64,000 nucleotides of DNA from Escherichia phage VerenaGrendelmeier_Bas101: sequence record PQ850631.1; one strand, given 5' to 3'. The notes beneath the pieces are model-generated. The model worked only from the letters and a program-made list of their open reading frames with translations, made no database searches and was not told the DNA's origin. The position numbers and the translations under genes were made by a program. Positions 1 through 64,000 of the stretch are shown here, piece after piece (within the stretch, counting starts at the first letter, position 1; every line of letters starts with the position of its first letter).

Positions 1-1
1 C

Positions 2-781
2 CCATCCAACGCTATTGCGATGGCCTATCGTCGTGAGATGAAAGGTCTTTGCTATGCGATGATTGACGACTATCAAGCAGGAATTGCTGAGTGGCTTGAA
101 AAGAAGCAGGTGAAAAAGTTCTTTGCGCAAGACTCTGCTGATTCAACTTTTCAGACCTTGATGAAGCGCCTTCAACTGAAATGGGCAAAAGCATTCGCCC
201 GTGTTGGGTCAAAGATTGCTGCAGATTTCATCAAGTCAGTTGAAAAGGGTGCGACTTCTGCTACATTCGCAAGTCTTAAATCTGCAGGAATAGAAGCGCC
301 AAAAGCCACATATAATAAATTCGTTGAGAACACTCTTAAAACAAGCGAGACGTTCAACACGACTCTAGTGACTAAGGTTGGCGAGGATATTCACAACAGG
401 GTGTACGAAGCGGTGATGCTTTCGCTGACTTCGCCAGACCCAGCGCAGCAAGGCACATCCGGCATTCAGGCGGCACTAAGGAATGTAAAACAATTCTCTG
501 CAAAACGCGTAGACCTTATCGCCAAAGACCAAACGAGCAAACTTTATTGCGTATTAAGTGATGAAAGGATGCGACAGAATGGCGTTGAGGAATTTGAGTG
601 GGCGCATTCAGGAGCAGGCAAAGAGCCGCGAATATCACATGAGCACGTCGACGGCATGAGATTCAAGCTTGATGACAAACGCTTATGGGAAGTAGGTGGA
701 GAACTTAAGTTCAAAAAGGGTGACATCGGTCCTCCTGGATGGGCAATACACTGCAAGTGCAGAAAAATACCAATTATCTGA
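2..781 (+). CDS. head morphogenesis protein, MuF/SPP1 gp7-like (5'-partial at window edge)
   Basis: Frame is open from the window start. C-terminal motif HSGAGKEPRISHEHVDGMRF...PPGWAIHCKCR is typical of the Mu F head morphogenesis domain. Confidence 0.65.
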   Translation, partial: PSNAIAMAYRREMKGLCYAMIDDYQAGIAEWLEKKQVKKFFAQDSADSTFQTLMKRLQLKWAKAFARVGSKIAADFIKSVEKGATSATFASLKSAGIEAPKATYNKFVENTLKTSETFNTTLVTKVGEDIHNRVYEAVMLSLTSPDPAQQGTSGIQAALRNVKQFSAKRVDLIAKDQTSKLYCVLSDERMRQNGVEEFEWAHSGAGKEPRISHEHVDGMRFKLDDKRLWEVGGELKFKKGDIGPPGWAIHCKCRKIPII

Positions 782-788
782 GGTCATT

Positions 789-1709
789 ATGACGATACCA
801 ATCAACACATTCCCTCTATCTGGACAAACTCCAGTCTTGCCTGCGGTGTATGCTAATGGCTTGGCAATTGTCTCAGAATTCACTTCTGATAAAAACTTGA
901 TTGTTCCACTGAGCCCGCCGCTTGCATCAGGGTATAACTCAGTAGGTCAATTCTTTATGATTGGCAATGATGGCGATTCGACCAGCAAGCCTAACCTGAC
1001 ATTGTCTGTGCCTAAGATGAACATCACAGACGTTCAAACTGGCTTGACTGCATCAACAATCACCATTGCTTTTGGTGAAGCAGTGATCATAGGTATGGAG
1101 TCTGGAGGGTCGAAAAACGCTGTCGCAGTCAAAGTTGTGAAAACCAGCGGCAACCAATACACGTTACCAGCGGCAACAGCTTCCGTTCTTGGTGGCGTCA
1201 AAATAGGCACCGGAATAAGCGTAGCAGGTGATGGTACAATCAGCGTCACCCAATACTCATTGCCGATTGCCTCAGCATCTACTTTAGGCGGCGTAAAGGT
1301 CGGTACAACTCTATCAATTGATGGGTCTGGTGTGCTTAATGCAGCAGCAAGTACCGTCCAGAATGCCACTAATAGCGTCAGCAATCCTCCAACAACTTTG
1401 GTCAATCTGGCAACCTTAAACCTTCCTGCAGGGAAATGGCTTGTAACAGCAAGTCAGTTGACTGTCGCGACAGCAGGCGTTCAAGCGAATACCGGAATTA
1501 CAGTCAAATTGTCAACAAGCAATTCAGATATTACGGATGATGCATTTGCCATGTCAGCTGGAATTCGGGCTGCAGGTCGCTTCGGCGGCAACATCCCAAC
1601 AAAAGTAATTACTCTTGCCGCGCCTGGTAATGTGTATTTAAACTATCAGTGCACCGACGCGTTGACATCTACCGTTTACGGACAGATCACCGCAATTAAG
1701 CTGAACTAA
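789..1709 (+). CDS. structural protein with tandem fiber-like repeats
   Basis: GAGG RBS 5 nt upstream of ATG. Internal ~32-aa repeats (PAATASVLGGVKIGTGISVAGDGTISV / PIASASTLGGVKVGTTLSIDGSGVL) resemble fiber-type repeats. Confidence 0.55.
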   Translation: MTIPINTFPLSGQTPVLPAVYANGLAIVSEFTSDKNLIVPLSPPLASGYNSVGQFFMIGNDGDSTSKPNLTLSVPKMNITDVQTGLTASTITIAFGEAVIIGMESGGSKNAVAVKVVKTSGNQYTLPAATASVLGGVKIGTGISVAGDGTISVTQYSLPIASASTLGGVKVGTTLSIDGSGVLNAAASTVQNATNSVSNPPTTLVNLATLNLPAGKWLVTASQLTVATAGVQANTGITVKLSTSNSDITDDAFAMSAGIRAAGRFGGNIPTKVITLAAPGNVYLNYQCTDALTSTVYGQITAIKLN

Positions 1710-1719
1710 AGAGGAAGTT

Positions 1720-1857
1720 ATGCAAAAGATTATTCAGTCACGTTATGTTAAAGTGCGAAATATTAATTGCAACTCTTTGCTTTCTTGGAAATGGGCTGTT
1801 TATGACTCGATGTTGATTGGCGTTTTAGTGGCAGGAGTGCTATTTAATATTCACTGA
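1720..1857 (+). CDS. small hydrophobic protein (45 aa)
   Basis: ATG preceded by GAGGAAG RBS; C-terminal hydrophobic stretch MLIGVLVAGVLF. Below the ORF-track size cut-off. Confidence 0.3.
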   Translation: MQKIIQSRYVKVRNINCNSLLSWKWAVYDSMLIGVLVAGVLFNIH

Positions 1858-1890
1858 ATTCATCGGCAAAGGATTGCCGCGAGTTTTATA

Positions 1891-2160
1891 CGTATAATGA
1901 CGTATCATCCGTATCAAGTAAGTTGTTGTTTTCAAAAGAATCTTACGGATGATACGCGTTGCCGCCGTACCATATAGGAATTCAAATAAATTAATTTAAA
2001 ATTATATATCTAATTTAATTTTATTTTTTTATAAACTCTTATATATGAAAAGTATCCGTATCATCCGTATCATCCGTAGCACACCAGTGATAGCGCGACT
2101 TATACACCGATACGGATAAAAATACGCCTCATTTTATCCGTATCATCCGTATCACACTAA
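1891..2160. repeat. iteron-like region: at least 8 copies of the 9-10-mer TCATCCGTA(TCA), both orientations, flanking an AT-rich tract (1981-2050)
   Basis: Copies at 1905-1916, 1943-1953 (rc), 2052-2078 (three tandem), 2109-2118 (rc), 2135-2154. Shares blocks with 54327-54615. Confidence 0.7.
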
Positions 2161-2211
2161 TAAAGGCGCGGCTATATCGGTTGTTATACATATTCAAACC
2201 ATAATTATTGT

Positions 2212-2240
2212 TTGCCTAAGTTTTTTTCATTAGATATAAT
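2212..2240 (+). promoter_or_regulatory. sigma70-like promoter TTGCCT-17-TATAAT for the structural operon
   Basis: -35 at 2212-2217, 17-bp spacer, -10 at 2235-2240, about 25 nt upstream of the 2264 start. Confidence 0.4.
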
Positions 2241-2263
2241 ACACAATACTTATTTGAGGGTGG

Positions 2264-3685
2264 ATGCGAATGCAAACGGCACGCGAAATTGACAAAAATG
2301 GATTCTTGACGATTATGGGTTGTCCAATTTCGTCATTTGGCATTTTTGATTATTCTGCTGGTCAAGTTGGTCTTGATGGTGATCCGAATCGCATCGTAAA
2401 AGTCTATCGCCCTGAGTCAGCGGTGAAAGACCCCGAAGCGATAGATTCATTCAAAAATATCCCTTTCATCGACAATCACGAAATGCTTTCTGGATTTGAA
2501 GGTGATGAGGATAACACGGCACCCGAAGAGTATGGTGTCGATGGCGTTCTAACTGGCAATGTTTATTATGACAAGCCATGGATGCGCGGCGACCTTAAAG
2601 TGTTCAGCCGTCGTCTTAAGAAGGCCATTGATTCTGGAAAGGTTGACTTGTCTTTGGGCTATGACTGTGAATTCATCATACAGTCTGGAGAGTTTGACGG
2701 GCAGCCGTATGAAGTGGTGCAGACAACTCTTCGCGGCAACCACATTGCTCTCGTGGACGTTGGTCGAGTACCAGGTGCACGGGTGCTGGATGGTCGTTGC
2801 TTTGACCATCTTTGTTTGACGACTGTAACACCATCCAACGAGGATTTAGACATGCCAAAACCGTTAAAAGGTAAAGCGCGTGATAATGCTGTTGAACAGC
2901 TGAAATCACTGATCCCTGCGCTCGAACAATTTCTGAATGAAGAGAGTGCTGAAGCTGCTCATCAGGACGAAGTTGAAGTGAAAGCAGAAGAGAAGGACTC
3001 AACCGAAAATCGTGAAGAAGTAATGGTTGATCCAGAAGTCAAGGCAGAAGCAGAAGAAACCCCAGAAGGTGAAGAGAAGTTTGAAGTTGAAACTGAATCT
3101 CACGCTGACGGCGAACTTCCGCAATTGATCAGCCAAATCGAAGCACTTATTGCAAAACTGAAAGGTGGCGCGGTAGGTGATGAAGAAGAAGTTGAAGCCG
3201 AAGTCAAAGACGAAGAAGAAGTTGAAGTCAAGGCTGAAGATGTATCACCTTGCGACAAAGCTGAAGATGTGGTTAGCGGCCTGCAAAACAGCAACGTAAA
3301 GGGGGCTTCGGTCGAAAAAGATGACAAACCGACAAAAGCGGCGAAAGCGTCGCCAGGTCCAGCAAAAGGGGAACACTCAATGGCATCTGATTCAGCAGTT
3401 GCTGCTTTCTACGCTGATTCTGCTCGTAAGAATAGCCTCTACCAGCGCCTGTCTAAAGTTGTTGGTGCCTTTGATCATGCAACTATGGACTCCAAGTCCG
3501 TAGCGAAATATGGCGCTAAAAAGTTAGGCTTGAAGTGCGTTGATGGTGCTGAGTTTGACGTGGTGGATAATTATCTGCGCGGCGTTGAGCACGGTCAAAA
3601 ACAGCGTGTAGTCGCAAAACAAAAGGCCGCTGCGGATTCTGCAGCAACTGACGAAGCATTTGAAGCTTGGTTGAAAGGGGAATAA
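2264..3685 (+). CDS. capsid maturation protease / scaffolding-like protein (DUF2213-like N-terminal domain, acidic repeat C-terminal half)
   Basis: N-terminal 200 aa resemble phage prohead protease-like domains. C-terminal half is highly acidic with tandem EEEVEAEVKDEEEVEVKAED repeats. An in-frame ATG at 2270 has better RBS spacing. Confidence 0.5.
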   Translation: MRMQTAREIDKNGFLTIMGCPISSFGIFDYSAGQVGLDGDPNRIVKVYRPESAVKDPEAIDSFKNIPFIDNHEMLSGFEGDEDNTAPEEYGVDGVLTGNVYYDKPWMRGDLKVFSRRLKKAIDSGKVDLSLGYDCEFIIQSGEFDGQPYEVVQTTLRGNHIALVDVGRVPGARVLDGRCFDHLCLTTVTPSNEDLDMPKPLKGKARDNAVEQLKSLIPALEQFLNEESAEAAHQDEVEVKAEEKDSTENREEVMVDPEVKAEAEETPEGEEKFEVETESHADGELPQLISQIEALIAKLKGGAVGDEEEVEAEVKDEEEVEVKAEDVSPCDKAEDVVSGLQNSNVKGASVEKDDKPTKAAKASPGPAKGEHSMASDSAVAAFYADSARKNSLYQRLSKVVGAFDHATMDSKSVAKYGAKKLGLKCVDGAEFDVVDNYLRGVEHGQKQRVVAKQKAAADSAATDEAFEAWLKGE

Positions 3686-3687
3686 AC

Positions 3688-4305
3688 ATGATTTTCCAAA
3701 CTAGTGTAGGCCGTCAATATACAACTGGCTTTCCTGGCGACATCGTTCGCGACGGCCCACAGCGTGGGAAGCCAGGCCGAATCGTTAGCGCCAACGACGG
3801 TGCAAACGTAAACGCCATCAGCCGTGTGTTTGGTTTTAAGGCTGACGTGTCATTAATGGGTACTGGCCAAACCAAAACCTTGGGCGCGCAGGACTTTGAA
3901 GTTGAACTGGGCGGCACCAATTACTATGGCATCCTTGGCAACAGCAAGCGTTACGCTCTGTATGGCAACTCTACTGGTCCTTTGGGTGCCAGCATGGTTC
4001 TGCCTCAATATAGCGAAGGCGAGTTCTATGATATGTGCACGGGCCTCGTAGTTGAAGTATTCAACCCAAGCACCAGTCCGCAGACGCTGAACTACGGCGA
4101 CCTGCTCGCTTATGTACCTAAAGGCATTTCCAGCGGTAACAACCCGAACAACTTGCCTATCGGTGCAATTATCGCCTATACTGGCTCACTGCCAACTGGC
4201 ATGGTTGCCATTCCAGGCGGTATCGTGATTGACCCGACTGCTATTGCCCTTTCCGGCCCAAGCGTCCAGTCTTCCACTTATACCATTGTACAATTGACTC
4301 GTTAA
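3688..4305 (+). CDS. head protein of unknown function (possible decoration/cement protein)
   Basis: AAGGGG RBS then ATG at 3688; lies between protease/scaffold and major capsid genes. Confidence 0.4.
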   Translation: MIFQTSVGRQYTTGFPGDIVRDGPQRGKPGRIVSANDGANVNAISRVFGFKADVSLMGTGQTKTLGAQDFEVELGGTNYYGILGNSKRYALYGNSTGPLGASMVLPQYSEGEFYDMCTGLVVEVFNPSTSPQTLNYGDLLAYVPKGISSGNNPNNLPIGAIIAYTGSLPTGMVAIPGGIVIDPTAIALSGPSVQSSTYTIVQLTR

Positions 4306-4319
4306 TAGGCAGGTGAATA

Positions 4320-5459
4320 ATGACTCGCATTAGCCAAACACACTCTCGCCTCCCAGCGAGCAAGGTGCGCCCTTTTGATATGCAATCCGTTACTGACGCG
4401 GCTGTTTCCCAGCTTGCTCGTATCGGTATTGTGTTTGATTCCGCGATTGTGCGTGATCAGATTGAGCACTTAAACCGTGCAGGCGCTTTCCGCGTAGGTG
4501 ACGCCGCGTTTACTGCGCCGCAGACTACTCCGTCAATCCCGACCCCGTTGCAATTCCTGCAGCAGTGGCTGCCTGGCTTCGTCAAAATCATGACCGCTGC
4601 TCGTAAAATCGACGAGCTGGTTGGTATTGATACCGTTGGTCAGTGGGAAGATGCAGAAATCGTTCAGGGCATCGTTGAACCAGCTGGCACCGCAGTTGAA
4701 TATGGTGATTTCACATCTATTCCTCTGGCAAGCTGGAACGTAAACTTTGAACGTCGTTCTATCGTTCGTGGCGAAATGGGCATGGCAGTTGGTATGCTGG
4801 AAGAAGGCCGCGCATCCGCTATGCGTCTGAACTCCGCAGAAACCAAGCGCCAGCAGGCTGCTGTATCTCTGGAAATCATGCGTAACGCAATCGGCTTCTA
4901 TGGTTGGTACAACGGGAACAACCGCACATTCGGCTTCCTGAATGATCCAAACCTGCCAGCAGCGATGACTTCCAACACCACTTCCGGCTGGGCTACTGCG
5001 ACTTTCCAACAGGTAACTGCAGACATCCGTTTGATGGTTCGTCAAATTCGTGTGAACTCTCAGGACCAGATTGATCCAGAGAAAGTTGACATGACTCTGG
5101 CGCTGCCGACTAACTCTATCGATTGGCTGTCCAACACCACTGACTTCGGTATTTCTGTACGTGACTGGATCACCCAGACTTATCCGAAGATGAAGATCAA
5201 ATCTGCACCGGAACTCAACGGCGCACTTGGCAGTGACCCGACTTTCTTGAACGTGGCATACCTGTACGCCGATCACATCGATTCCTCAATCGATGGTTCA
5301 AGCGATGATGGTTCCGTATTCAGTCAGCTGGTTCAAACCAAGTTCATGACTCTGGGCGTTGAAAAGCGTGCTAAGAGCTACGTTGAAGACTACGCAAACG
5401 CAACAGCAGGCGTTCTGCTCAAGCGTCCGTTCGCAGTCGTCCGTATGACTGGTATTTAA
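4320..5459 (+). CDS. major capsid protein
   Basis: 379 aa, position after scaffold, strongly optimised codon usage, followed by a hairpin; resembles the DUF2184-type capsid family. Confidence 0.7.
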
Positions 5460-6509: not shown

Positions 6510-6892
6510 GGATTCCTGGCGTAAACTTATATCGAGTTGCGACAAAGGTTATCGGTCGCCAACCGATTCAATATTACATGTACAAGGGGCGCACCCTTGA
6601 TAAGATGCGCAACTATGTCACTACATATGAAGAACCAATCACTTTACTTGCTTCGGTGCAGGCTGTACTTCGAAACCAATACGTTGAGCTTGGATTAGAG
6701 CTTCAAAAGAACTATGTCAAAATCTGGGTGGACAAAGACATTGTTGACCTTGACCGCGACGCTTCCGGCGACTATTTTGTGTTTGGTGGCAAAACGTACA
6801 AGATGGAAGATGAAACGACATGGTTTGACCAAGATGGTTGGACGTCTTGCCTTGCCGTGGAAGTAAAACAAAGCTTTCCAGTGTCTACTTGA
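6506..6892 (+). CDS. hypothetical structural protein
   Basis: GTG start overlapping upstream stop (GTGA), suggesting translational coupling. Confidence 0.4.
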   Translation: MRIPGVNLYRVATKVIGRQPIQYYMYKGRTLDKMRNYVTTYEEPITLLASVQAVLRNQYVELGLELQKNYVKIWVDKDIVDLDRDASGDYFVFGGKTYKMEDETTWFDQDGWTSCLAVEVKQSFPVST

Positions 6893-6899
6893 GGTGTAT

Positions 6900-7475
6900 A
6901 TGACAGATGTCGACCTGATTGACATGCTGGCAACGCGAATTGAAGAAGGTCTGGCGGCGTATAGTCGTGCAGACCTTTCTGCTGTTCCGGTCCAGAAAAA
7001 ATACCAACCGACTCAACAGGGCATTCCGACTGGTGATCAGATTTGGTTTAACCTTTTATTCTCAGTTCCATTTGGTTGGTCGATGAGAAAGAATGAATTT
7101 GTCAATGATGAATCTCAATTCGTTAATGGCAAATTTAAAGATATTGAAGATCAGATATACGCAACACGTTTTCAAATTAGCGGTTTATTTCCAGAAGTCC
7201 CTGGCGATCCAGAAAAGCCTACGGCTAATGACGTTTTGACTTATTTAGCAAGATTCATAACCCACAAGGCTAATTTGAGAGATTGGTTTAAAAAGCATCA
7301 AGCTTCAGTATATAGAGTCGACATGAACAACAATGAAAAGTTCTATGACGACATGTCGCAATTTGAATCGTTTCCTTCTTTTGATTTGGTAATCCTTCAC
7401 AGAAACGCAATTTCAATTGACACGCCTGCTGTTGCAAGAGCTGTTAATAACGATTTAGGCGATATTCCGGTGTGA
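6900..7475 (+). CDS. hypothetical structural protein
   Basis: GAGG RBS then ATG at 6900. Confidence 0.45.
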   Translation: MTDVDLIDMLATRIEEGLAAYSRADLSAVPVQKKYQPTQQGIPTGDQIWFNLLFSVPFGWSMRKNEFVNDESQFVNGKFKDIEDQIYATRFQISGLFPEVPGDPEKPTANDVLTYLARFITHKANLRDWFKKHQASVYRVDMNNNEKFYDDMSQFESFPSFDLVILHRNAISIDTPAVARAVNNDLGDIPV

Positions 7476-53551: not shown

Positions 53552-54000
53552 TGGGCAAACGGCTTATCGCCGCTGGTTGGGCCATACCGAAGTGGGGCCA
53601 TCGTGCGCATTACTTTGACGAAGGAGAAGGGCAAAGCCTTTGTGGTCGCGCAACATATTTCGGTGATGAGCGCGTCAGCGGCGATTATATCGATTCGCTT
53701 TTAGGTAAAGGTGATTGCAAGAAGTGCCAAAATATATTAAGAGATATTCTTACGCAAAAAGGATTGCTTGAGCTTGATGAATCGGAAGAAGTAATTGATC
53801 TTAAGCTGGAAGCCAATCACCTTATTAATATGTTCAAGAATTATTACTTAACTAATATGCGCTCAAAGATGCGTAAGGAAGTAATAGAAGAGGTACTCAC
53901 TTACAATCCTTTAAGGATGAATAAAACTAAATTGAAGAAGTTTAATATAATGATAAGGAAGGAATTTAAAAGGCTTGGAGTGAAGAATTTTATATTTTAA
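53551..54000 (+). CDS. hypothetical protein
   Basis: AGGAGG RBS; CxxC...CxxC-like cysteines; last gene before terminator. Confidence 0.4.
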   Translation: MGKRLIAAGWAIPKWGHRAHYFDEGEGQSLCGRATYFGDERVSGDYIDSLLGKGDCKKCQNILRDILTQKGLLELDESEEVIDLKLEANHLINMFKNYYLTNMRSKMRKEVIEEVLTYNPLRMNKTKLKKFNIMIRKEFKRLGVKNFIF

Positions 54001-54016
54001 TAGTGATTAATGTTAA

Positions 54017-54038
54017 GAGGGCCGATTGGCCCTTTTTG
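54017..54038 (+). terminator. rho-independent terminator ending the early block
   Basis: GGGCCGATTGGCCC followed by TTTTT. Confidence 0.65.
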
Positions 54039-54039
54039 T

Positions 54040-54290
54040 TTGCCTGTGGTATGTGAGGATTTATTATCGGATAAAGCGATTGATTTGTGCAAATCTATTA
54101 GAGGGTCATGGGTAGTGAGGATTGTGACGTGAATTTTGTGTCTTGAATATGTGTGCGAATCTGGAAGATTATTGTACTGTGGTGCTGTGGGATTGTAGAG
54201 GGAATCACTAGGAATTGGAGCGTGTACCGTGGTGTGTGGTCCTGTAGGCTGCGCCGTCTATGGGATTGTCGCTTGAAATTAAAAAGGAGA
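54040..54290. repeat. non-coding GT-rich tract with GGGATTGT / GAGGATTGT repeats
   Basis: Strong G+T skew on plus strand; no ORF; repeats near 54118, 54192, 54262. Confidence 0.5.
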
Positions 54291-54326
54291 TATAGTTAGC
54301 TGGCTAACCTTACGCATAGAATTTAA

Positions 54327-54615
54327 GCGTATAATGACGTAAGATTTGGACCTATCCGTAGTTCACTCCACACACTTCTATGGTGCGCCGCGACTGGGTT
54401 CAGTGGTACATCTTACGGATGATACGGATGATACGCGTCGCCGCTATACTTTATACAACTTTGAAAAAAACAATTAACTCCATTTTGAATTAATTTAAAT
54501 TAATTTTTTTCTACATCCTCATACTTATACTAAACTTATATTTATACGTATTATCCGTAAGATATAAGTAAAAACAAAGACTTGCGGCAATACGGATGAT
54601 ACGTCACGATACGCT
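54327..54615. repeat. second iteron-like region homologous to 1891-2160
   Basis: Shared blocks GCGTATAATGACGTA, ATCTTACGGATGATACG...GCCGC, AT-rich AATTAATTTAAA tract, TATCCGTA copies. Confidence 0.65.
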
Positions 54616-54778
54616 TCAACCAGCCAGCAGCGGCTAAGTCATTGATTTGCATAACAAGCGACGAAAGGGATGGATTTCTTTTATACGTATCAAACAGTAC
54701 ACCACGCACCACGGTCCGTTATCCATCCAGCACTATGATTTGTGTACGTTTATAGCCATAATGAACATCAATCTGCAC

Positions 54779-54807
54779 TTGAATATAATGTCCATCCATT
54801 GTATAAT
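54779..54807 (+). promoter_or_regulatory. sigma70-like promoter TTGAAT-17-TATAAT
   Basis: -35 at 54779-54784, -10 at 54802-54807, upstream of the TerS-like ORF. Confidence 0.35.
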
Positions 54808-54817
54808 TCACACTATT

Positions 54818-56298
54818 AATTTGCACTATGGGATTTTGCACTATGAGTCAAGATTATGTAGCGATGCCTGAAGACTTTGAAGACCCGCGATTCGCAGAGC
54901 ACAATCAGGCTTTATTCGATGAGTTCATTGACCTTGTTATTCAGGGCCATGACATGCGCGCAGCTTTTGCACTAGTATTTGGAATGGAAGTTGCAACGGA
55001 TAACTACACTGGCCAGCGAATCCTTTGCACGCAACGCAATCCATACTACAAGATGCGCTTCAAAAAGCGTATGGAAGAGATGCCACTCAAGGATTTGTGG
55101 AGCGTAAAAGGTGCAATTCACAATTTGGTCAAGCTTGTGCGTGATCCAGAAGTCGCGGCGTCAGCCAAGCTTAATGCTATTCGTGAACTGAATATCATCT
55201 ATGGCATCACGATGATTGATGAAAACGGCAATAGTAAAATGGGCCGTTCTATGGACGATTTCTACAAGGATTTTGGAGAGGCGGCCAAAGAAGGCGAGCA
55301 ATTCTCCCGCCACTAGCCAATTTGCACTATAAAACGGCCCTAGAACACATTGTCTCCACTTCTAGGGCCATCGGTAATACGACGGGGAAGGTTGCAACCG
55401 TAAACGCGTTAGAAAGTGTATTATTATAAGTCATCTTTTAGTCACCTTACGTAACAATTTACGACCTTCAACCGTCCAATCGAACGACTCCACCAGCAGA
55501 TTCGCACTATAACCTAAGATGATGCGCCCTTTCTCGTTATCGACCCGCCAACAAGTCTCGAATAGCATTCGATTTGCACTATTAACTATCGCCGCAACGC
55601 GCGTTGGGTAAACGCAATTTGCACTATGGTCGTAAAGGGATAAGGTGCGACCACTTCCGATGGACAATGTAGCGATGAGAATAAGCGTATTCATAAGCCA
55701 CCAATTTGCACTATGAAAAGCGACCCCGAAGGGCCGCCATTCGATTAGATAATCTGGAATGTGTAGGACTTGTTGCCGAACTCAAAGTTCAAGCGTCCAG
55801 CTTCTTTAAGCTTCATGCGGAAGCGAATGTGCTTACTATCCGGTAAGCCCAGCGCGGCGAACGCCACGCGGACCGATTTGAACTCGCCTACACCCTCGAC
55901 CATAACGCCGTTACGCGTGAGACGCTTTTGCGCCACTTCCTTGTTATCCCAACTTTTTGCAATACCTTCGCTATTCGAACGGCGATGGGAAGGAGTTCCA
56001 TTTTGCACTACGCAATTTGCACTATCGTTTAGGCCGCTTTTAACGAAGGCTTCATACTCTTCGTCGGTCATCGCGTCGAGTTCTTCCTGGGTCGGCTCGG
56101 CCTTTTTAACGACCGCACGCGCCTTATGCGTTTTTACATCGCTGGACACTTCCTCGCGCGGCTTCGCGTCGGGAATGGGCGATTCGTTGGACGGCTCATC
56201 GAGCGCGTTTAAGGACTCGATTAACGCGATTACGCGAGTCTCGGCGGTACGGCGGTCCGCAAATTTCTTAATCGGCTTCGAACCGGAATTTGCATTAT
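54818..56298 (+). repeat. strand-specific array of about 10 copies of the 12-mer AATTTGCACTAT (and one-mismatch variants)
   Basis: Copies at 54818, 54833, 55319, 55499, 55571, 55616, 55703, 55999, 56014, 56287, all in the same orientation, irregular spacing, crossing coding and non-coding DNA. Confidence 0.75.
54828..55316 (+). CDS. terminase small subunit-like DNA-binding protein (orphan; start ambiguous 54828/54843)
   Basis: HTH-like GHDMRAAFALVFG followed by LKDLWSVKGAIHNLVKLVRDPEVAASAKLNAIRELNIIYGIT; no large terminase gene adjacent. Confidence 0.35.
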   Translation: MGFCTMSQDYVAMPEDFEDPRFAEHNQALFDEFIDLVIQGHDMRAAFALVFGMEVATDNYTGQRILCTQRNPYYKMRFKKRMEEMPLKDLWSVKGAIHNLVKLVRDPEVAASAKLNAIRELNIIYGITMIDENGNSKMGRSMDDFYKDFGEAAKEGEQFSRH

Positions 56299-56371
56299 AA
56301 AATGCAACGAGGTCGGCGGTCTTAGTTGCGATAACGTCGCCGCTAGTCGAGAAACGATTTAAGCTAACCAT
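55745..56371 (-). CDS. hypothetical protein (208 aa)
   Basis: Long ORF with codon usage distinct from the structural genes (AAG, CGC, TCG-rich); contains embedded 12-mer copies. Confidence 0.4.
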   Translation of the reverse strand: MVSLNRFSTSGDVIATKTADLVAFYNANSGSKPIKKFADRRTAETRVIALIESLNALDEPSNESPIPDAKPREEVSSDVKTHKARAVVKKAEPTQEELDAMTDEEYEAFVKSGLNDSANCVVQNGTPSHRRSNSEGIAKSWDNKEVAQKRLTRNGVMVEGVGEFKSVRVAFAALGLPDSKHIRFRMKLKEAGRLNFEFGNKSYTFQII

Positions 56372-56451
56372 AATGAACTCCTATTTGTTAGGGCGCTAGG
56401 CGCGAAAGAATTTTATTAAAGCGCCGCGCGCGACGCTCTAAAAATCCTCTC

Positions 56452-56766
56452 TTACTCTTCGTCGTCTTCGATTAATTCGAGGGCGAAGGCGTAAGCTTTG
56501 CTATCGTAATTAACTAAAACGGCGAGTTCGAACTCGTTAATAAACGCCGTTTTACCGCATAAATTTAATTCCGCATCGACTTCGAAGAATCCGTTTTCGT
56601 CGCGCTCTAAGCGAGAAGCAGCGAGTTGCTCGATTACCGTCGCGTCGTTAATTTCTTCGCCTAAGCGAACGCCGGAGAATTTCGCGAGAATTTCGCCGTA
56701 AGTAAGCGTAACGCCCTGGACTTCGGCGGTTGCGTTTTCGAGGGTAAAGCGGGTAACGATAGCCAT
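56452..56766 (-). CDS. small acidic protein (104 aa)
   Basis: Strongly acidic, ends ...LIEDDEE. Confidence 0.45.
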   Translation of the reverse strand: MAIVTRFTLENATAEVQGVTLTYGEILAKFSGVRLGEEINDATVIEQLAASRLERDENGFFEVDAELNLCGKTAFINEFELAVLVNYDSKAYAFALELIEDDEE

Positions 56767-56906
56767 AATAAACTCCTAGTTGGGAGAGGCGTTAACGACC
56801 TATTCGTTAACTCATCCCGTCCCGATATGAGTACATTATAATATAGTGTAGAAAAAAGTAAAGCACTTTTTCGATAAAAATGCGATAAATTATTTTATCT
56901 TTTTTC

Positions 56907-56934
56907 TTTACTTCTTCGTACACTCGCGTATACT
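56907..56934 (+). promoter_or_regulatory. sigma70-like promoter TTTACT-16-TATACT with conserved GTACACT spacer and TTGTTTATATCGAGA leader
   Basis: Near-identical architecture to 57305-57333. Confidence 0.45.
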
Positions 56935-56988
56935 TGTTTATATCGAGACGGGCGATGGCCCTTCCTTCTACTAGCATCGGGAGTTTTA

Positions 56989-57293
56989 TTATGACCACTT
57001 TAATCTCTTCTATCCTTACTTACGACGAAGACCGTTTAACCGTTCGCTCTCTTATCGCCGCCGTTAACGCGGAACTAGAATCCACCATTATTAAGGTCCG
57101 CGCGGTCGCTTTCGTCGGCCTTTCCTTCGACGATATTAAGTACGCCGAACGTAGCGCCATCCGCTTCGCGAAGACCGACGACGAAGCCGTTACCCTTATC
57201 GAGACGGTTACGCCGCGCGGCGAAGCGTTAATTATCGTCGAGTATATCGACGTAGAAGGCGATAAGGCTTATAAATATTTTATTGCAGAATAA
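56989..57293 (+). CDS. small acidic protein (101 aa)
   Basis: ATG at 56989; acidic. Confidence 0.45.
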
Positions 57294-57304
57294 CGAAAAA
57301 GTGC

Positions 57305-57333
57305 TTTACTTCTTCGTACACTAAGACTATAAT
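57305..57333 (+). promoter_or_regulatory. sigma70-like promoter TTTACT-17-TATAAT, paralog of 56907-56934
   Basis: Shares CTTTACTTCTTCGTACACT and the GTTTTATATCGAGAG leader. Confidence 0.45.
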
Positions 57334-57400
57334 GTTTTATATCGAGAGGGGATGAGGTAGCGAATAGGTCGCTACCCGCCCGACCAACTAGGAGATTATT

Positions 57401-57691
57401 ATGATTACTTTAGCCGCTATCCGTTCCGCTCGCGTCGAGACTTCCGAAAACTCTAACGTATTTGGCGAAACCTTAGAGAGCGTTTATCTCTCTAACGTAG
57501 ACGCAACTATCGAACCTATTTATGAGCCGATCAACTTCCTCGACCTTTACAAGTATCGCGACGAGGACATCGTATCATCCCGCGTAACGATTAACGGCTT
57601 CGTCTATACGATTACCGAAATCGGCGGCGAATATCTCGCTGTACCGCAACTCGGCGGCGAAGTAACTTATTTTAAAATTGTCTCCTTATAA
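57401..57691 (+). CDS. small acidic protein (96 aa)
   Basis: GGAG RBS, ATG at 57401. Confidence 0.45.
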   Translation: MITLAAIRSARVETSENSNVFGETLESVYLSNVDATIEPIYEPINFLDLYKYRDEDIVSSRVTINGFVYTITEIGGEYLAVPQLGGEVTYFKIVSL

Positions 57692-57710
57692 TATCCTTCC
57701 GTTACTAATA

Positions 57711-57736
57711 GGCCGCGCTTAGTCGCGGCTTTTCTT
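57711..57736 (+). terminator. rho-independent terminator
   Basis: GCCGCG...CGCGGC stem followed by TTTTCTT. Confidence 0.6.
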
Positions 57737-57854
57737 CGTCCCTATCTCGATGCGCTTCTCCGCGAAAACTCCTTTATCCTTCCCTTCGTCGTCGCATAAT
57801 CTTCGTCGAGATGCGCCTTAGTTCGCATAACAGGTATTACGTTAAATGGAGAAC

Positions 57855-57931
57855 ATCGCGTAAGTCCTTGTTTTATATAGACACCTATATCGGACCGTTA
57901 GGGCGGGTCGCGTAAGTCGTTGTTTTATAAA
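57855..57931 (+). repeat. direct repeat pair TCGCGTAAGTC(C/G)TTGTTTTATA
   Basis: Copies at 57855-57879 and 57907-57931; shares TTGTTTTATA with the leaders of the two promoters upstream. Confidence 0.55.
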
Positions 57932-58055
57932 GGCGCAAAACTTTCCCTTCGTTCCGAACTAAAACGAGGAATATGCCGACCCTTCGCCCGAAAATAGTAC
58001 GCATGCGAAATCACATGCATCTCGAATAATCCCCACCGATATTATCCTACACGCA

Positions 58056-58118
58056 ATCATTCGCTTTCGAATCATTATGCTTCATATTATTATGCGTCGA
58101 ATCATTCGCTTTCGAATT
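58056..58118 (+). repeat. direct repeat pair AATCATTCGCTTTCGAAT
   Basis: Copies at 58056-58073 and 58101-58118, each with a TTCGAA palindrome. Confidence 0.55.
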
Positions 58119-58205
58119 GTAACGCTGGAAACTGTAACGGCGATTGATTATTGCGTTCGTGTGGTTTTTAGGGCATGGGTCTTTTGGTGCGTTTTGGTGC
58201 TTGAT

Positions 58206-58318
58206 GGAATTTGCGGTACACTAATCAAAATACGACACATTTGGTCCACTAACTTTTCAAAGAAAAAGTCCTAGACAGTACCGTACTATTTTGTACCCAC
58301 AGGAATTTGCAGTACACT
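58206..58318 (+). repeat. direct repeat pair GGAATTTGC(G/A)GTACACT
   Basis: Copies at 58206-58222 and 58302-58318; combines the AATTTGC core with the GTACACT promoter-spacer motif. Confidence 0.5.
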
Positions 58319-58388
58319 CCTGCGCGGCAGGCAAAATAAAGGGCCGCCCTAAGCGACCCACGATTCATGGTTAAATCAGCAACACCCA

Positions 58389-58769
58389 CTATTCACTCTT
58401 ATGGGCATCACCAAATCCATCAGCAATCTGGCTGATCAACGACTCAATGGACACAGTTTTACCAATTGATCGAGCGGTTATGGCGAGCATATTATCAATC
58501 AAACCACGATTGGCTTCACATGTTCCAGGCTTTAATTCATCTTTAGGACCACCAAAAAGCTGGTCGCGCAGACTTTCAAGAGAACGCTCAATATTTTCCA
58601 ACTTCTCTTCTAAATCGGATTGGCGACGTAAAACCCACGTCAAGTCACGGTTGCCAACTTCCAATCCATCAGAATAGCAAGGTGGAGCGTCAATTTTGAT
58701 GCTGGAACCAAAAGCAGTGCCGCTGCCTTTAGTATAAGTATGGCTCATAGAATCATTTTTATTTGACAT
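58389..58769 (-). CDS. hypothetical protein (126 aa)
   Basis: Start set at internal ATG with AAAGG RBS; the longer ORF-track N-terminus reads through a terminator hairpin. Confidence 0.4.
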   Translation of the reverse strand: MSNKNDSMSHTYTKGSGTAFGSSIKIDAPPCYSDGLEVGNRDLTWVLRRQSDLEEKLENIERSLESLRDQLFGGPKDELKPGTCEANRGLIDNMLAITARSIGKTVSIESLISQIADGFGDAHKSE

Positions 58770-59099: not shown

Positions 59100-59495
59100 T
59101 CAATATTTTAATAAGAAAGCACCCAACCAACTTTCCTCGACCTCGCGGCCAGTAGCCACACGGTCGGTCTTGGCTATGGGTCTGGATTCGCCGCAGGGCA
59201 ACCCGTCCTGTAGATGTGTACTATTGCCAATTCTCACCATGACCTTTCCATCAGGGTCGATATAAGCGCGACAACCCATGATTTCGAGTCGTTGTAGACA
59301 CTGGCGAATCGTTTTCAGCTTCTCACCGGACCGGATAGAGCGCGGTCGCGACCGCTGACCGTTTTTATTCACTGTACGCTTGACGACCGGAATCTCATTG
59401 GTGCGTTGCGGCTTGGGTCGGTAATAAGCCTCTTCGCCAGGAGTCGCACCTGGCGTTAATTCGCGCTTGAGAGCCTTTTCAATATCGATGATCAT
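59100..59495 (-). CDS. hypothetical basic protein (131 aa)
   Basis: Arg/Lys-rich ORF. Confidence 0.4.
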   Translation of the reverse strand: MIIDIEKALKRELTPGATPGEEAYYRPKPQRTNEIPVVKRTVNKNGQRSRPRSIRSGEKLKTIRQCLQRLEIMGCRAYIDPDGKVMVRIGNSTHLQDGLPCGESRPIAKTDRVATGREVEESWLGAFLLKY

Positions 59496-59958: not shown

Positions 59959-62292
59959 TTATTTCGCTGCTTTTAGCGCGGCTATCTCTGCCTCTAGTGA
60001 CTCGACCTTTTTCATCAACTCCTGTACCACGTGCATCGTATCCAAAAGCATAGGTGTCGTATCAAGTTGTTTTTGTTCAACTTCGACACCTTCACTCGGA
60101 TAGAATTTAATCGTCTTAACATACAAAGGATCAATAATCTCTGCCTGTTGAGCGATAATACCCCTTCTTATCCTTTCCTTTTCATCATTGTTGTATATGA
60201 ACGTTACATACTCCAGCGATGAAAGGTTGCTCCATGCTTTTTCAACCGTTCCTGGTTTTATGTCATGCTTCAAATTCTCATCAGAGATGGCATTCTTCTG
60301 AAGCGTGTAAAAACTATCTGATCCAAGAATTGACACAGAGAAGAATACATCATGAGAGTTTGGCTGGATGTTCATCCTTGTTTGGTATTGCGCGTTATCG
60401 TCACCTACGACAAGCCAAGTCCCCTGAGCAAAACTTCCATTATTATTGTGGATCAAACCGTGATGAAGAGTGGTCGCATAGCCTGTATCTACTTGTTGAC
60501 CGCCGCTAAAAAGGCTGTTGAATGCATAGTTTTGACCTATTGACTGTCTCACCGTTGCATAAGTGCCGATTCTTGTGCCAGTCTCATTCCAAGACATGAG
60601 ACTTCCGTATCTTGCTGCGTATCGGTCGCTACTCAGGGTTCCTGAATCATCAAACGCAAGGTCTTTTGTAACTCCTTTTGTTTTGTTATATACAGATAAA
60701 ATTGCATAATAAAAGCCATCCATGTATGCATCGCACCGAAGCCCAGCATCAGCCTCAACGACGGTTCCGATTTTGTATTGAGCCCTTATCTGACCAGATG
60801 ATGCCTTGACTCCAGAACCTGGGCGAACGGAGTCAGCATTGATGACCTGCCATTGCGTATCCGCGGCAACGAATCCACCCGATGCACGAATCACCCAAAC
60901 TCCGACGAAGTTGCGCGGAACAATTTCCGCTGCTGAACGACCATAAACAGGACTGCAGCGAGAAGCGTCAAAGTTTGTTTGTATGAATCTTGACCCAGAG
61001 CCTGCTGCCGCAGGAGAGTCACCCGAAGTTATTGACTGAAAAGCACCATTAGTTGCCACCTGGCTTGGTGCAGAAGCCAGCGTCACCATTGTGTGCGGCG
61101 CTGAGTAAATTATATTTGGAGCGCCTGATTCAGACACAACCCCGTTGGATGATGAATTCCCACCGTCACCCCTGCCAAATAAGGCCTGTATGGAACCAGT
61201 TTGAACACCGTTCCTGTCAGGCACTCGAAACGTCGTCGTTCCGTTGCCCAGAGAATATTTGCCGCGTTTTGCTGGGTCTGCTAACCAATCTGCATCAGCA
61301 ATAGGTGAAAGCATTTGCGCATACGCCCAAAGCTCAGGCCAATCAGCACGATTGAGTAGTTGACCGTCAGCGACGACTTCATAAGGTTGAATATAAGCGC
61401 GGCTGTCGCGTAAGTGGAAGTCGCCGACGCCATAGTTCATCACGCCGTTCATACTTGGGCCAACGGTGCCTGTGTTCACCAAGTTCTCAACCCAACGCTT
61501 CGTAGTAGCATCATAGTCGTTAACTGGGTCGCCAGCGAGCGGCGTTGATCCTTGAGGGCGTATGTTCAACCAAGCCTGAGCATTATCTGCAGAGCCTGTG
61601 CCGCCCATGGAAGTTGGCACGATGTCTTGATCAGCGACTGCGCCAAATCCAAAGGCCGACTTCACACCATCAATAGTTGTCTGGCCTGTGCCGCCGTTAG
61701 CTACTGGGATTACGGTTGACTCGGAATAAATCATGACCCAAGAAGACCATGATTGAGTTTCCATGGTGAATCTTCTTTGATATGTATTGTTGGAATCGAA
61801 TGTCGTATATCGTTGAATGCAACTTTCTGATATAACGCCTGTCTGCAATACTTCTAATACTCCTGCTTGCTGCGCAGGGTAATTCAAAGCTGAAGATGCA
61901 CCACCGTTTGAATTTTGGAAGTACTGCCCAAACCAAGTCCCTGTAAGCGCATTAAGATTCATGCCGGATGGAACAATCCCAAAGTTTCGGACAGTGCCCG
62001 TCAAAGTCGCGGCAGTAGTTCGAATGGAAAGCATATCGCCCGCCGCCCATGCACGAGCTGCAGTACCTTCCTGCGCACGCTGCACGGTTAGAACGTTTCC
62101 AACAACGGCTGTTACTGTGACGATTTCGAACTGGAGGCCTGTTGCAGCGTCGACGATTGTCGCCACTACACGCTCGTTTGCGCCCAAGGTCGGAAAGCCC
62201 GACCCTGAGCGGATTGTGATTGTGGTGCCTGAAGTCGTCGTTGGCTGAGCGAGCGCGACCTCAAAGTTGTTTTTGAATATTAGCCTTGGCAT
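59959..62292 (-). CDS. tail fiber / tailspike protein with C-terminal intramolecular chaperone (peptidase S74-like) domain
   Basis: 777 aa; C-terminal SDENLKHDIKP...LEYVTFIYNND...RRGIIAQQAEIIDPLYV and terminal coiled coil. Confidence 0.65.
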   Translation of the reverse strand: MPRLIFKNNFEVALAQPTTTSGTTITIRSGSGFPTLGANERVVATIVDAATGLQFEIVTVTAVVGNVLTVQRAQEGTAARAWAAGDMLSIRTTAATLTGTVRNFGIVPSGMNLNALTGTWFGQYFQNSNGGASSALNYPAQQAGVLEVLQTGVISESCIQRYTTFDSNNTYQRRFTMETQSWSSWVMIYSESTVIPVANGGTGQTTIDGVKSAFGFGAVADQDIVPTSMGGTGSADNAQAWLNIRPQGSTPLAGDPVNDYDATTKRWVENLVNTGTVGPSMNGVMNYGVGDFHLRDSRAYIQPYEVVADGQLLNRADWPELWAYAQMLSPIADADWLADPAKRGKYSLGNGTTTFRVPDRNGVQTGSIQALFGRGDGGNSSSNGVVSESGAPNIIYSAPHTMVTLASAPSQVATNGAFQSITSGDSPAAAGSGSRFIQTNFDASRCSPVYGRSAAEIVPRNFVGVWVIRASGGFVAADTQWQVINADSVRPGSGVKASSGQIRAQYKIGTVVEADAGLRCDAYMDGFYYAILSVYNKTKGVTKDLAFDDSGTLSSDRYAARYGSLMSWNETGTRIGTYATVRQSIGQNYAFNSLFSGGQQVDTGYATTLHHGLIHNNNGSFAQGTWLVVGDDNAQYQTRMNIQPNSHDVFFSVSILGSDSFYTLQKNAISDENLKHDIKPGTVEKAWSNLSSLEYVTFIYNNDEKERIRRGIIAQQAEIIDPLYVKTIKFYPSEGVEVEQKQLDTTPMLLDTMHVVQELMKKVESLEAEIAALKAAK

Positions 62293-63850: not shown

Positions 63851-63871
63851 GGTTTACTCCTGATAAAAAAA

Positions 63872-63891
63872 TGGCCAGAAAGAATCTGGCC
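63872..63891 (-). terminator. hairpin plus U-tract immediately upstream of the 63850 gene (minus strand)
   Basis: GGCCAGA...TCTGGCC; minus-strand transcript followed by seven U. Confidence 0.45.
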
Positions 63892-64000
63892 GAAAGATCA
63901 CCCTTTATCCACTACTAAGCTGGAATCATAATTTTACTTGATATAGCTTGCACAAGCAAACTATAATATGAATAAAATATCAACACATAATTGGAAAGTC

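What the first reader, a model, noticed from the sequence alone, without database searches (positions are those of the whole stretch)
54828..55316. Orphan TerS-like gene without an adjacent large terminase
The protein has the layout of small terminase subunits (N-terminal HTH-like segment, then an oligomerisation-like helical region), but no TerL or portal gene follows, and the head genes at the window start lie about 10 kb downstream in circular order. It is embedded in the 12-mer array and preceded by the second iteron region, so it could be a packaging-specificity factor acting on these repeats or a repurposed DNA-binding regulator.
Basis: inference. Interest (0 to 1): 0.5.

Follow-up and report, generated by a model that had tools for sequence, protein, structure and literature searches.

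The report
Unannotated small terminase at genome end
The gene is a genuine small terminase subunit, the DNA-recognition part of the phage packaging motor. It is a clear relative of the solved E217 protein, and its position far from the large subunit, just inside the genome's terminal repeat, is normal for this phage lineage.

Summary
The window is a Wifcevirus, an E. coli myovirus 95-97% identical to WFH, WFC and Bas98. The flagged ORF is real, but its conserved start is probably ATG 54843 (157 aa), not 54828.

"Orphan" is a lineage trait. The large-terminase (TerL) ATG is the first base after the window, 8.7 kb downstream, with no TerS-like neighbour. E217 TerS is likewise remote from TerL.

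Unreported in the papers I could search: terS is the first gene inside the ~3.7 kb direct terminal repeat. The left genome end lies 356-387 nt upstream of terS in three genera, in an AT-rich block flanked by lineage-specific iterons. A putative pac site lies 601 nt upstream in Pbunavirus JG024.

The "12-mer" (TTYGCACTAY) is a real array in a single orientation, and it is written over genes on both strands. Five lineages conserve it, and relatives carry oriented Chi clusters beside it. What binds it is unknown.

Verdict: new member of a known kind.

The parts
54843..55316 (+). terS coding sequence: 157 aa, 18.2 kDa, pI 5.2.
54779..54807 (+). sigma-70-like promoter TTGAAT-17-TATAAT just upstream of terS. 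Its -10 element is conserved in the divergent relative L005.
   Evidence: Consensus scan, 10 of 12 positions matched. GTATAAT is invariant in the four-way alignment. This is a consensus match only, not shown to be active.
54470..54545 (.). AT-rich block containing the inferred left genome terminus (cut between 54481 and 54482, TTAACTCC|ATTTTGAA), 361 nt upstream of the terS ATG.
   Evidence: The linear records of WFH, WFC and SP13 all start at this base. Korf 2019 reports ~3.7 kb terminal repeats. The boundary 16-mer is conserved in L005. The AT-richest 60-mer is centred at -363. The Kyle terminus has a similar sequence context.
54407..54435 (.). Left iteron arm (TTACGGATGATACGGATGATACG), about 60 nt outside the terminus and inverted relative to the right arm.
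   Evidence: the repeat finder family D10 and inverted pair I3. The pair is centred on 54486. Analogous lineage-specific iterons occur in six other lineages.
54544..54603 (.). Right iteron arm (TATTATCCGTAAGATA at 54544-54566) plus a further direct copy, ATACGGATGATACG, at 54590-54603. Both lie inside the repeat.
   Evidence: The L011 iteron TTATCCGCAAGATAT is the visibly related version.
54819..56299 (+). Array of TTYGCACTAY (ATTTGCACTAT) in a single orientation. Copies start at 54819, 54834, 54966 (inside terS), 55320, 55500, 55572, 55617, 55704, 56002, 56015 and 56288.
   Evidence: Copies are intergenic, or lie inside minus-strand genes in both stop-free frames, or lie inside terS. The array is conserved in L005, L011, L012/Kyle and L013, always on the terS strand.
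55336..55369 (.). GC-rich hairpin (GGCCCTAGAA...TTCTAGGGCC) between the converging terS and minus-strand genes. WFH annotates it as a minus-strand terminator.
   Evidence: Sequence read. WFH feature at locus 7335-7370.
54482..58184 (.). Region homologous to the 3,701-bp direct terminal repeat of WFH. terS is its first gene.
   Evidence: WFH 1-3701 is identical to WFH 67583-71283 and maps to window 54482-58184. The repeat is inferred for this phage by 94% identity. It was not measured here.
55490..55497 (+). Single exact CCACCAGC, which is Chi (GCTGGTGG) on the minus strand, abutting an 11-mer copy. It looks like a relic of the Chi clusters seen at this place in relatives.

Best explanation
The gene at 54843-55316 encodes the small terminase subunit (TerS) of this Wifcevirus. 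It is an orthologue of Pseudomonas phage E217 TerS.

By homology it should form a ring (a decamer in E217). Each subunit would have an N-terminal helical DNA-binding domain, a helical-hairpin oligomerisation core and a short beta stalk. Its role would be to mark phage DNA for the large terminase (TerL), whose gene starts at the first base after the window.

The gene sits 361 nt inside the left boundary of the ~3.7 kb direct terminal repeat, directly downstream of the site where the genome end is made. The most likely mechanism has four steps. TerS binds around that site. It recruits TerL to cut in the AT-rich block at 54481/54482. Packaging then runs rightwards through terS. Transcription of terS starts from its own sigma-70-like promoter.

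What is shown: homology and fold, gene order, the position of termini in related records, and the existence and conservation of the repeats.

What is inferred: ring assembly, DNA binding, which repeat is bound, direction of packaging, and the presence of the terminal repeat in this particular isolate.

My sub-estimates: TerS orthologue about 0.9. Acts at the adjacent terminus about 0.55. Iterons are the bound sites about 0.35. The 11-mers are the bound sites about 0.25.
For: Identity of the protein:
- Sequence: 7uxe_A 'Small terminase', E = 6e-34 over query residues 7-152.
- 7UXE is the decameric E217 TerS. Its gene is reported ~58 kb from terL (PMC9611059).
- Fold: Foldseek puts 7uxe_A top (probability 1.0) and PaP3 TerS second.
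- Family breadth: 358 phage records carry a homologue, from Pseudomonas, Escherichia, Serratia, Burkholderia, Xanthomonas and Pantoea phages. One is annotated 'small terminase subunit'.
- There are 190 representatives at 50% identity, mostly 150-190 aa.

No rival TerS:
- Bas98 and WFH annotate none. The ORFs flanking TerL have no TerS hit.

Position at the packaging cut:
- WFH, WFC and SP13 records start 360 nt upstream of terS.
- Kyle starts 356 nt upstream and carries a second copy near its right end.
- The PhageTerm-predicted repeat boundary of MyoSmar is 387 nt upstream.
- In JG024, 36 of 161 long reads start at 59,376, which is 601 nt upstream of terS at 59,977.
- In seven lineages an 80-87% AT block lies at -325 to -376 (-527 in JG024), flanked by lineage-specific iterons in both orientations.
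Against: - No curated family covers the protein. Pfam gave 0 hits and NCBIfam nothing relevant. The only named-TerS profile hit is weak (phrog_1595, E = 0.099).
- E217 TerS showed no appreciable DNA binding in vitro. The only functional evidence for it that the review I could read reports is reduced phage infectivity when it is overexpressed. The functional label of the whole family therefore rests mainly on structure.
- The protein is acidic (pI 5.2), with only one basic patch, at residues 58-75.
- The terminal repeat and its ends are taken from related records, not measured for this isolate.
- Pbunavirus packaging is disputed. It has been described as headful or permuted and as having fixed ends.
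- Iterons plus an AT-rich block also fit a replication origin.
Confidence: 0.85

Rival explanations
1. TerS recognises the conserved 11-mer array (TTYGCACTAY). The array would be the packaging-specificity site, wrapped around or read by the ten DNA-binding domains of the ring.
For: The array is tightly clustered around terS, and every copy is on the terS strand. It is conserved in five lineages whose TerS proteins are 43-100% identical. Every locus fetched here with at least 7 copies also encodes a TerS homologue, and none of the other viral-contig pattern hits has more than 4. In Wifcevirus and L005, two or three copies overlap the terS start codon and the 5' leader.
Against: Spacing is irregular (15 to 486 nt). 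Copies are written over coding sequence on both strands. That pattern resembles polar signals such as Chi more than a cooperative binding site. The bulk of the array lies 0.8-1.8 kb from the cut. The motif stays constant while TerS diverges to 43% identity. MyoSmar and JG024 have TerS but no such motif. E217 TerS did not bind DNA appreciably in vitro.
Confidence: 0.25
2. The 11-mer array is a polar DNA signal unrelated to TerS binding. A machine travelling in from the left genome end would read it, for example a nuclease-helicase in the way RecBCD reads Chi. It would serve end protection or recombination of the terminal repeats. On this reading terS merely lies inside that zone.
For: All copies share one orientation regardless of gene strand, and they occur in both stop-free reading frames. 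In the relatives L011, L012/Kyle and L013 the same zone, and in MyoSmar the corresponding zone, carries 4-9 exact copies of CCACCAGC. That is Chi on the minus strand. About 0.03 copies are expected and none occur in the opposite orientation. They are often directly adjacent to the 11-mer. From general knowledge of RecBCD, this is the orientation that would be active for an enzyme entering at the left end.
Against: No enzyme is known to recognise TTYGCACTAY. The window itself keeps only one exact Chi. The upstream copies that overlap the terS start suggest a local regulatory or binding role.
Confidence: 0.3
3. The protein is a TerS-fold protein repurposed as a transcriptional or replication regulator of the terminal-repeat genes. 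The iterons plus AT-rich block would be a replication origin rather than a packaging site.
For: Iterons flanking an AT-rich block are classic origin anatomy. Motif copies overlap the terS promoter-proximal leader, which is an operator-like position. E217 TerS lacks demonstrated DNA-packaging biochemistry in the sources I could read.
Against: No regulator-family hit. No other TerS exists in these genomes, although TerL is present. Physical genome ends map to the AT-rich block in three genera. The cumulative GC skew has its minimum near 41 kb and its maximum at 54-56 kb, which does not favour an origin here, although the skew also tracks gene orientation.
Confidence: 0.07

Closest known systems
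Small terminase of Pseudomonas phage E217 (Pbunavirus), PDB 7UXE, Lokareddy et al. 2022
   Same: Clear sequence homology (about 41% identity, E = 6e-34) and the same predicted fold. The gene lies downstream of the primase module and remote from terL on the linear map, and is followed by minus-strand small genes.
   Different: The protein here is 157 aa against 189 aa, so the C-terminal tail is shorter. The host is E. coli. Wifcevirus records show a ~3.7 kb direct terminal repeat containing the gene, whereas Pbunavirus genomes are mostly described as headful or permuted. Oligomeric state and TerL binding were not tested here.
SPP1/SF6 G1P and P22 gp3 type pac systems, where the TerS gene lies next to or contains its own pac site (general knowledge, plus review PMC9611059)
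   Different: There is no detectable sequence homology. In those phages terS is followed directly by terL. They package by headful, not with a long exact terminal repeat.
Chi (GCTGGTGG), the polar signal read by RecBCD (general knowledge)
   Same: The 11-mer array shares Chi's hallmarks: a single orientation, irregular spacing and overlay on coding sequence of either strand. In relatives it is interleaved with real Chi sites in one orientation.
   Different: The sequence is different, no reader enzyme is known, and it is confined to about 1.5 kb beside terS.

Membership tests
E217-type small terminase (PDB 7UXE; PHROG 4783) | Significant full-length sequence similarity to E217 TerS | tested here: met
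   phmmer E = 6e-34, query 7-152 on chain 6-150. PHROG 4783: 1.9e-75. tblastn to about 295 Pseudomonas phage records at 41% identity.
E217-type small terminase (PDB 7UXE; PHROG 4783) | TerS protomer fold: N-terminal helical (HTH) domain, helical-hairpin oligomerisation core and stalk | tested here: met
E217-type small terminase (PDB 7UXE; PHROG 4783) | Ring oligomer (decamer in E217) | not testable with these tools
   No multimer prediction or experiment was available. Inferred from homology only.
E217-type small terminase (PDB 7UXE; PHROG 4783) | Conserved genome context: downstream of the primase module, remote from terL, followed by minus-strand small genes | tested here: met
   The same order is seen in WFH, Bas98, L005, L011, L012/Kyle, L013, MyoSmar and JG024.
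Small terminase in the functional sense | Binds TerL and is required for packaging initiation | not testable with these tools
   No assay was possible. For E217, the only functional result the held review reports is reduced infectivity on overexpression.
Small terminase in the functional sense | Recognises a specific site at or near the packaging cut | tested here: inconclusive
   The gene lies 356-387 nt from mapped or recorded termini in three genera and 601 nt from a putative pac site in JG024. Candidate sites exist. Binding is untested, and E217 TerS bound DNA poorly in vitro.
Curated TerS families in Pfam and NCBIfam (for example Terminase_2, Terminase_4, Nu1) | Score above the family threshold | tested here: not met
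   Pfam: 0 families even at E <= 10. NCBIfam: only a spurious sub-threshold hit. phrog_1595 'terminase small subunit': E = 0.099.
HTH transcriptional regulators | Match to a regulator HTH family | tested here: not met
   No Pfam or NCBIfam HTH hit. Regulators in the fold searches appear only at noise level.

The most novel reading that the evidence does not exclude
The single-orientation TTYGCACTAY array is a previously undescribed polar DNA signal at the genome end. It is conserved across at least four genus-level lineages beside terS, inside the terminal repeat. In relatives it is interleaved with Chi clusters of one orientation. A translocating enzyme would read it: either the terminase motor, as a direction or termination cue for making exact terminal repeats, or a RecBCD-like nuclease, as a phage-specific Chi analogue.
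Probability: 0.25. Interest if true: 0.65.

Novelty: new member of a known kind. Interest (0 to 1): 0.33.

Why it matters
For annotation, Wifcevirus, Kylevirus and Myosmarvirus genomes currently list only TerL for packaging. This gene can now be named, and PHROG 4783 can be given a function.

For biology, the E217-type TerS has had no known DNA target. The comparison made here places its gene beside mapped genome ends in three genera, and 601 nt from a putative pac site in a fourth (JG024). It also defines short, testable candidate sites: lineage-specific iterons around an AT-rich cut, and a conserved polar 11-mer.

That makes the recognition step of this family directly testable in an E. coli phage. 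It also matters to people who assemble or reboot these therapeutic-type phages and need the true genome ends.

Tried and rejected
- Pfam and NCBIfam scans of the protein gave nothing useful.
- Rfam found nothing credible in 53900-58700; the only hit was mcrA at E = 0.72.
- PHROG, Pfam and PDB sequence scans of the other terminal-repeat genes, looking for an alternative DNA binder, gave no informative hit.
- The primary E217 paper (PMC10026623) is not held. E217 facts therefore come from the authors' review.
- The 162-aa (54828) and 210-aa (WFH annotation) forms were rejected as the product. The upstream ATG is out of frame in WFH, and the WFH extension translates non-coding repeat DNA.
- A scan of viral contigs for two spaced motif copies was too permissive. 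It returned 120 mostly chance hits. It was useful only as a control: true arrays occurred only where terS is present.
- The 11-mer as a sigma-70 promoter was rejected. It has no consistent -10/-35 geometry, and most copies would drive antisense transcripts.
- The 11-mer as a peptide repeat was rejected. Copies are also intergenic and occur in two reading frames.
- The 11-mer is absent from MyoSmar and JG024.
- A literature search for the motif found nothing relevant.

Full report
**What the window is.** The region 54000-57000 is 95-97% identical to Wifcevirus genomes such as WFH, WFC, FEC19, ECML-117 and Bas98. These are E. coli and Shigella myoviruses of 66-72 kb, and they are distant relatives of Pseudomonas Pbunavirus. 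Window position 1 corresponds to Bas98 position 4695, inside a head-morphogenesis gene. The window's last bases...cataattggaaagtc, are exactly the bases that precede the TerL ATG in WFH. TerL therefore begins at the first base after the window. TerL, two small ORFs, the portal gene and the first ~70 nt of the head-morphogenesis gene are the ~4.7 kb (Bas98 1-4694) not included.

**The observation.** The ORF 54828-55316 (+) exists. Two ATGs lie at its 5' end, at 54828 and 54843. In WFH a 1-nt deletion between them puts the first ATG out of frame. The 210-aa product annotated in WFH is an artefactual extension through non-coding repeats. WFC, SP13 and Bas98 annotate the 157-aa form, and all distant homologues align from that methionine. 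The 157-aa product is identical to WFC QBQ77393.1. Every source that names it or its cluster members calls it a hypothetical or uncharacterized protein. Downstream lie three minus-strand and two plus-strand small genes, with no TerL or portal.

**What the protein is.** Pfam gives no hit even at E <= 10, and NCBIfam gives nothing relevant. PHROGs places the protein in phrog_4783, 'unknown function' (1.9e-75). Only a marginal hit links it to a family named TerS (phrog_1595, E = 0.099).

A sequence search of the PDB is decisive. Chain 7uxe_A, 'Small terminase', matches with E = 6e-34 over query residues 7-152. 7UXE is the cryo-EM structure of the decameric TerS of Pseudomonas phage E217 (review PMC9611059).

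The family is small and restricted to phages. It has 190 representatives at 50% identity, mostly 150-190 aa. There are 358 phage records with a homologue, nearly all labelled hypothetical and one labelled 'small terminase subunit'. Published Wifcevirus genome descriptions list only TerL for packaging.

**Is it really an orphan?** In Bas98 and WFH no other gene is annotated as TerS. TerL is the first gene of its plus-strand operon and is preceded by minus-strand genes. The small ORFs flanking TerL have no TerS hits. The E217 authors themselves noted that its terS is ~58 kb from terL on the linear map. The gene order is conserved in every relative examined: primase module, a ~0.7-1 kb gene-free gap, terS, minus-strand small genes, two plus-strand small genes. 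Separation from TerL, 8.7 kb here, is a trait of the lineage and not an anomaly of this genome.

**Position relative to the genome ends.** Korf et al. reported terminal repeats of ~3.7 kb for WFC and WFH. In the WFH record, bases 1-3701 equal bases 67583-71283, and they map to window 54482-58184. WFH, WFC and SP13 all begin ATTTT(G/A)A..., directly after the conserved TTAACTCC. All three place terS 360 nt from the left end. The boundary 16-mer is intact in the 69%-identity relative L005.

Pantoea phage Kyle (Kylevirus) is a linear record whose gene 1 is the TerS homologue, 356 nt from the left end. A second copy lies near the right end, which implies a repeat of ~3.6 kb. Serratia phage MyoSmar has a PhageTerm-predicted 3,559-bp repeat whose boundary is 387 nt upstream of its homologue. 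In Pbunavirus JG024, 36 of 161 long reads start at 59,376. The authors proposed this as a pac site, and it lies 601 nt upstream of terS at 59,977.

So in three genera the recorded or predicted genome end lies a few hundred bases upstream of terS, and in a fourth (JG024) a putative packaging start does. For this window the repeat is inferred from 94% identity and was not measured.

**The cut-site module.** In all seven lineages compared, the AT-richest 60-mer (80-87% AT) of the upstream gap is centred at -325 to -376 from the terS ATG, or -527 in JG024. In Wifcevirus and Kyle the recorded terminus falls at that centre (-361 against -363, and -356 against -350). In MyoSmar and JG024 the predicted boundary and the putative pac site lie 60-75 nt upstream of it (-387 against -325, and -601 against -527). 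The block is flanked by short repeats in both orientations, and these differ between lineages:
- TACGGATGA / TATCCGTAAGA in the window
- AACGTATCA, 7 copies, in L005
- TATCCGCAA, 9 copies, in L011
- GAATATCCG in Kyle
- TAACCGTTT in L013
- GTAATTTGG in JG024

In the window, the nearest arms (54407-54429 and 54544-54566) form an inverted pair centred on 54486, which is at the terminus.

Its layout, with repeats on both sides of a cut just upstream of terS, recalls the pacL-pacC-pacR organisation of SPP1 (general knowledge). Because these repeats change as TerS changes, I consider them the better candidates for TerS recognition. This is inference. Iterons plus an AT-rich block also fit a replication origin. 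However, the cumulative GC skew has its minimum near 41 kb and its maximum here.

**The '12-mer' array.** ATTTGCACTAT with at most 1 mismatch occurs 9 times between 54819 and 56298, all on the + strand. Shuffles give 1.95 on average, and none of 100 reached 9. All 9 plus-strand GCACTAT sites in the window lie in 54730-56019, and 9 of its 10 TTGCACTA sites lie in 54821-56017.

The degenerate form T[TC][TC]GCA[CT]TA is conserved at 8-12 copies, always on the terS strand and mostly at +440 to +1450 from the ATG. It is present in L005, L011, L012/Kyle and L013, whose TerS proteins are 43-69% identical to the window's.

Copies are intergenic, lie inside three different minus-strand genes in both stop-free frames (read as S-A-N or V-V-Q), and lie inside terS itself. 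This is therefore a DNA-level signal and not a protein repeat. Window and L005 share perfectly conserved islands around the copies within otherwise ~60%-identical sequence.

Among 120 viral contigs that matched a loose two-copy pattern, only those with a TerS homologue had a true array. MyoSmar and JG024 lack the motif.

Irregular spacing, a single orientation and overlay on genes of either strand are the hallmarks of polar signals such as Chi. They are not typical of a cooperative binding site. I cannot tell whether TerS reads the array.

**A related observation.** In L011, Kyle and L013 the same zone, and in MyoSmar the corresponding zone, carries 4-9 exact copies of CCACCAGC. This is Chi on the minus strand. 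No copy occurs in the opposite orientation, about 0.03 copies are expected by chance, and the sites are often directly adjacent to an 11-mer. From general knowledge of RecBCD, this orientation would stop an enzyme entering at the left genome end. The window keeps one exact copy (55490) and three one-mismatch relics.

**Mechanism, stated plainly.**
- Shown: the protein is a homologue of a solved TerS. It is the only TerS candidate in the genome. Its gene is the first gene inside the region homologous to the terminal repeat. Related phages have their genome ends, or in JG024 a putative packaging start, just upstream of it. Two kinds of conserved repeats surround it.
- Inferred: the protein forms a ring. 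It binds near the AT-rich block. It recruits TerL to cut at 54481/54482. Packaging then proceeds rightwards. This direction fits the drop in JG024 read coverage just upstream of the proposed pac site.
- Caveats: E217 TerS showed no appreciable DNA binding in vitro, and the only functional evidence the held review reports is an overexpression effect. The protein here is acidic overall, with a single basic patch at residues 58-75.

**Novelty and verdict.** The gene is a new, currently unannotated member of a known kind, the E217-type TerS. Its separation from TerL is already described for E217. The papers I could search do not report its conserved placement at the left edge of a long terminal repeat, the lineage-specific iteron and AT-rich cut module, or the conserved polar 11-mer with Chi clusters. 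These are modestly interesting and make the DNA-recognition step of this family testable.

Noticed in passing
L011 3857-5060; L012 3899-5616; L013 3861-5433; L006 4653-4993 (window 55490 is the only exact copy in the repeat): Relatives carry 4-9 exact copies of CCACCAGC, which is Chi (GCTGGTGG) on the minus strand. All are in one orientation and lie within -144 to +1615 of terS, inside or at the edge of the terminal repeat, often directly abutting a TTYGCACTAY copy. This is the orientation active for RecBCD entering at the left genome end. Wifcevirus has almost lost them.
   Followed up: partly
window 54377-54398; L006 (MyoSmar) 3452-3473 and inverted copy 3737-3762: A 22-nt block (TCTATGGTGCGCCGCGACTGGG; the core 21-mer starts at 54378) is identical between this E. 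coli phage and Serratia phage MyoSmar, although their TerS proteins share only 36% identity. In both it lies about 80-105 nt outside the repeat boundary. MyoSmar has an inverted copy 263 nt away, inside the repeat. The block is absent from L005 and has no Rfam match.
   Followed up: partly
window 58039-58126 and 58206-58222 / 58302-58318: Just inside the inferred right repeat boundary (58184) lies a 45-bp unit repeated twice in tandem. Just outside it lie two copies of GGAATTTGCRGTACACT, which share AATTTGC with the 11-mer.
   Followed up: no
window 56764-57412: There are long inverted repeats (56764-56828 / 57339-57403, 65 nt, 82%; and 56844-56876 / 57291-57323). There are also ~100-bp direct duplications spaced ~400 nt apart, each with a sigma-70-like promoter (TTTACT...TATAAT or TATACT). 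They sit around the divergent start region of the minus-strand gene 56452-56766 and the plus-strand genes 56991-57293 and 57401-57691.
   Followed up: no
window 55431-55694 (-): This 87-aa ORF has a signal-peptide-like N-terminus. It contains three 11-mer copies on its antisense strand, each read as S-A-N. The pair 45 nt apart is conserved in L005, L011 and L013.
   Followed up: partly
L008 (JG024) 3118-3657 and 3981-3996: Pbunavirus JG024 has its own repeat, GTAATTTGG, in five direct copies plus inverted copies. It brackets the published putative pac position. Two inverted copies overlap the terS start codon, which parallels the 11-mer copies that overlap the start codon in Wifcevirus.
   Followed up: partly
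window 63864-64000: The window stops exactly one base before the TerL start codon. The last ~140 nt hold a hairpin and a TTGATA...TATAAT-like promoter for the late operon.
   Followed up: partly
L001 (WFH) 6684-7316 and L004 202-834: The WFH GenBank annotation gives a 210-aa product. The cause is a 1-nt deletion that fuses non-coding upstream repeat DNA in frame. Some database cluster members of 162 and 210 aa reflect the same start-codon ambiguity.
   Followed up: yes
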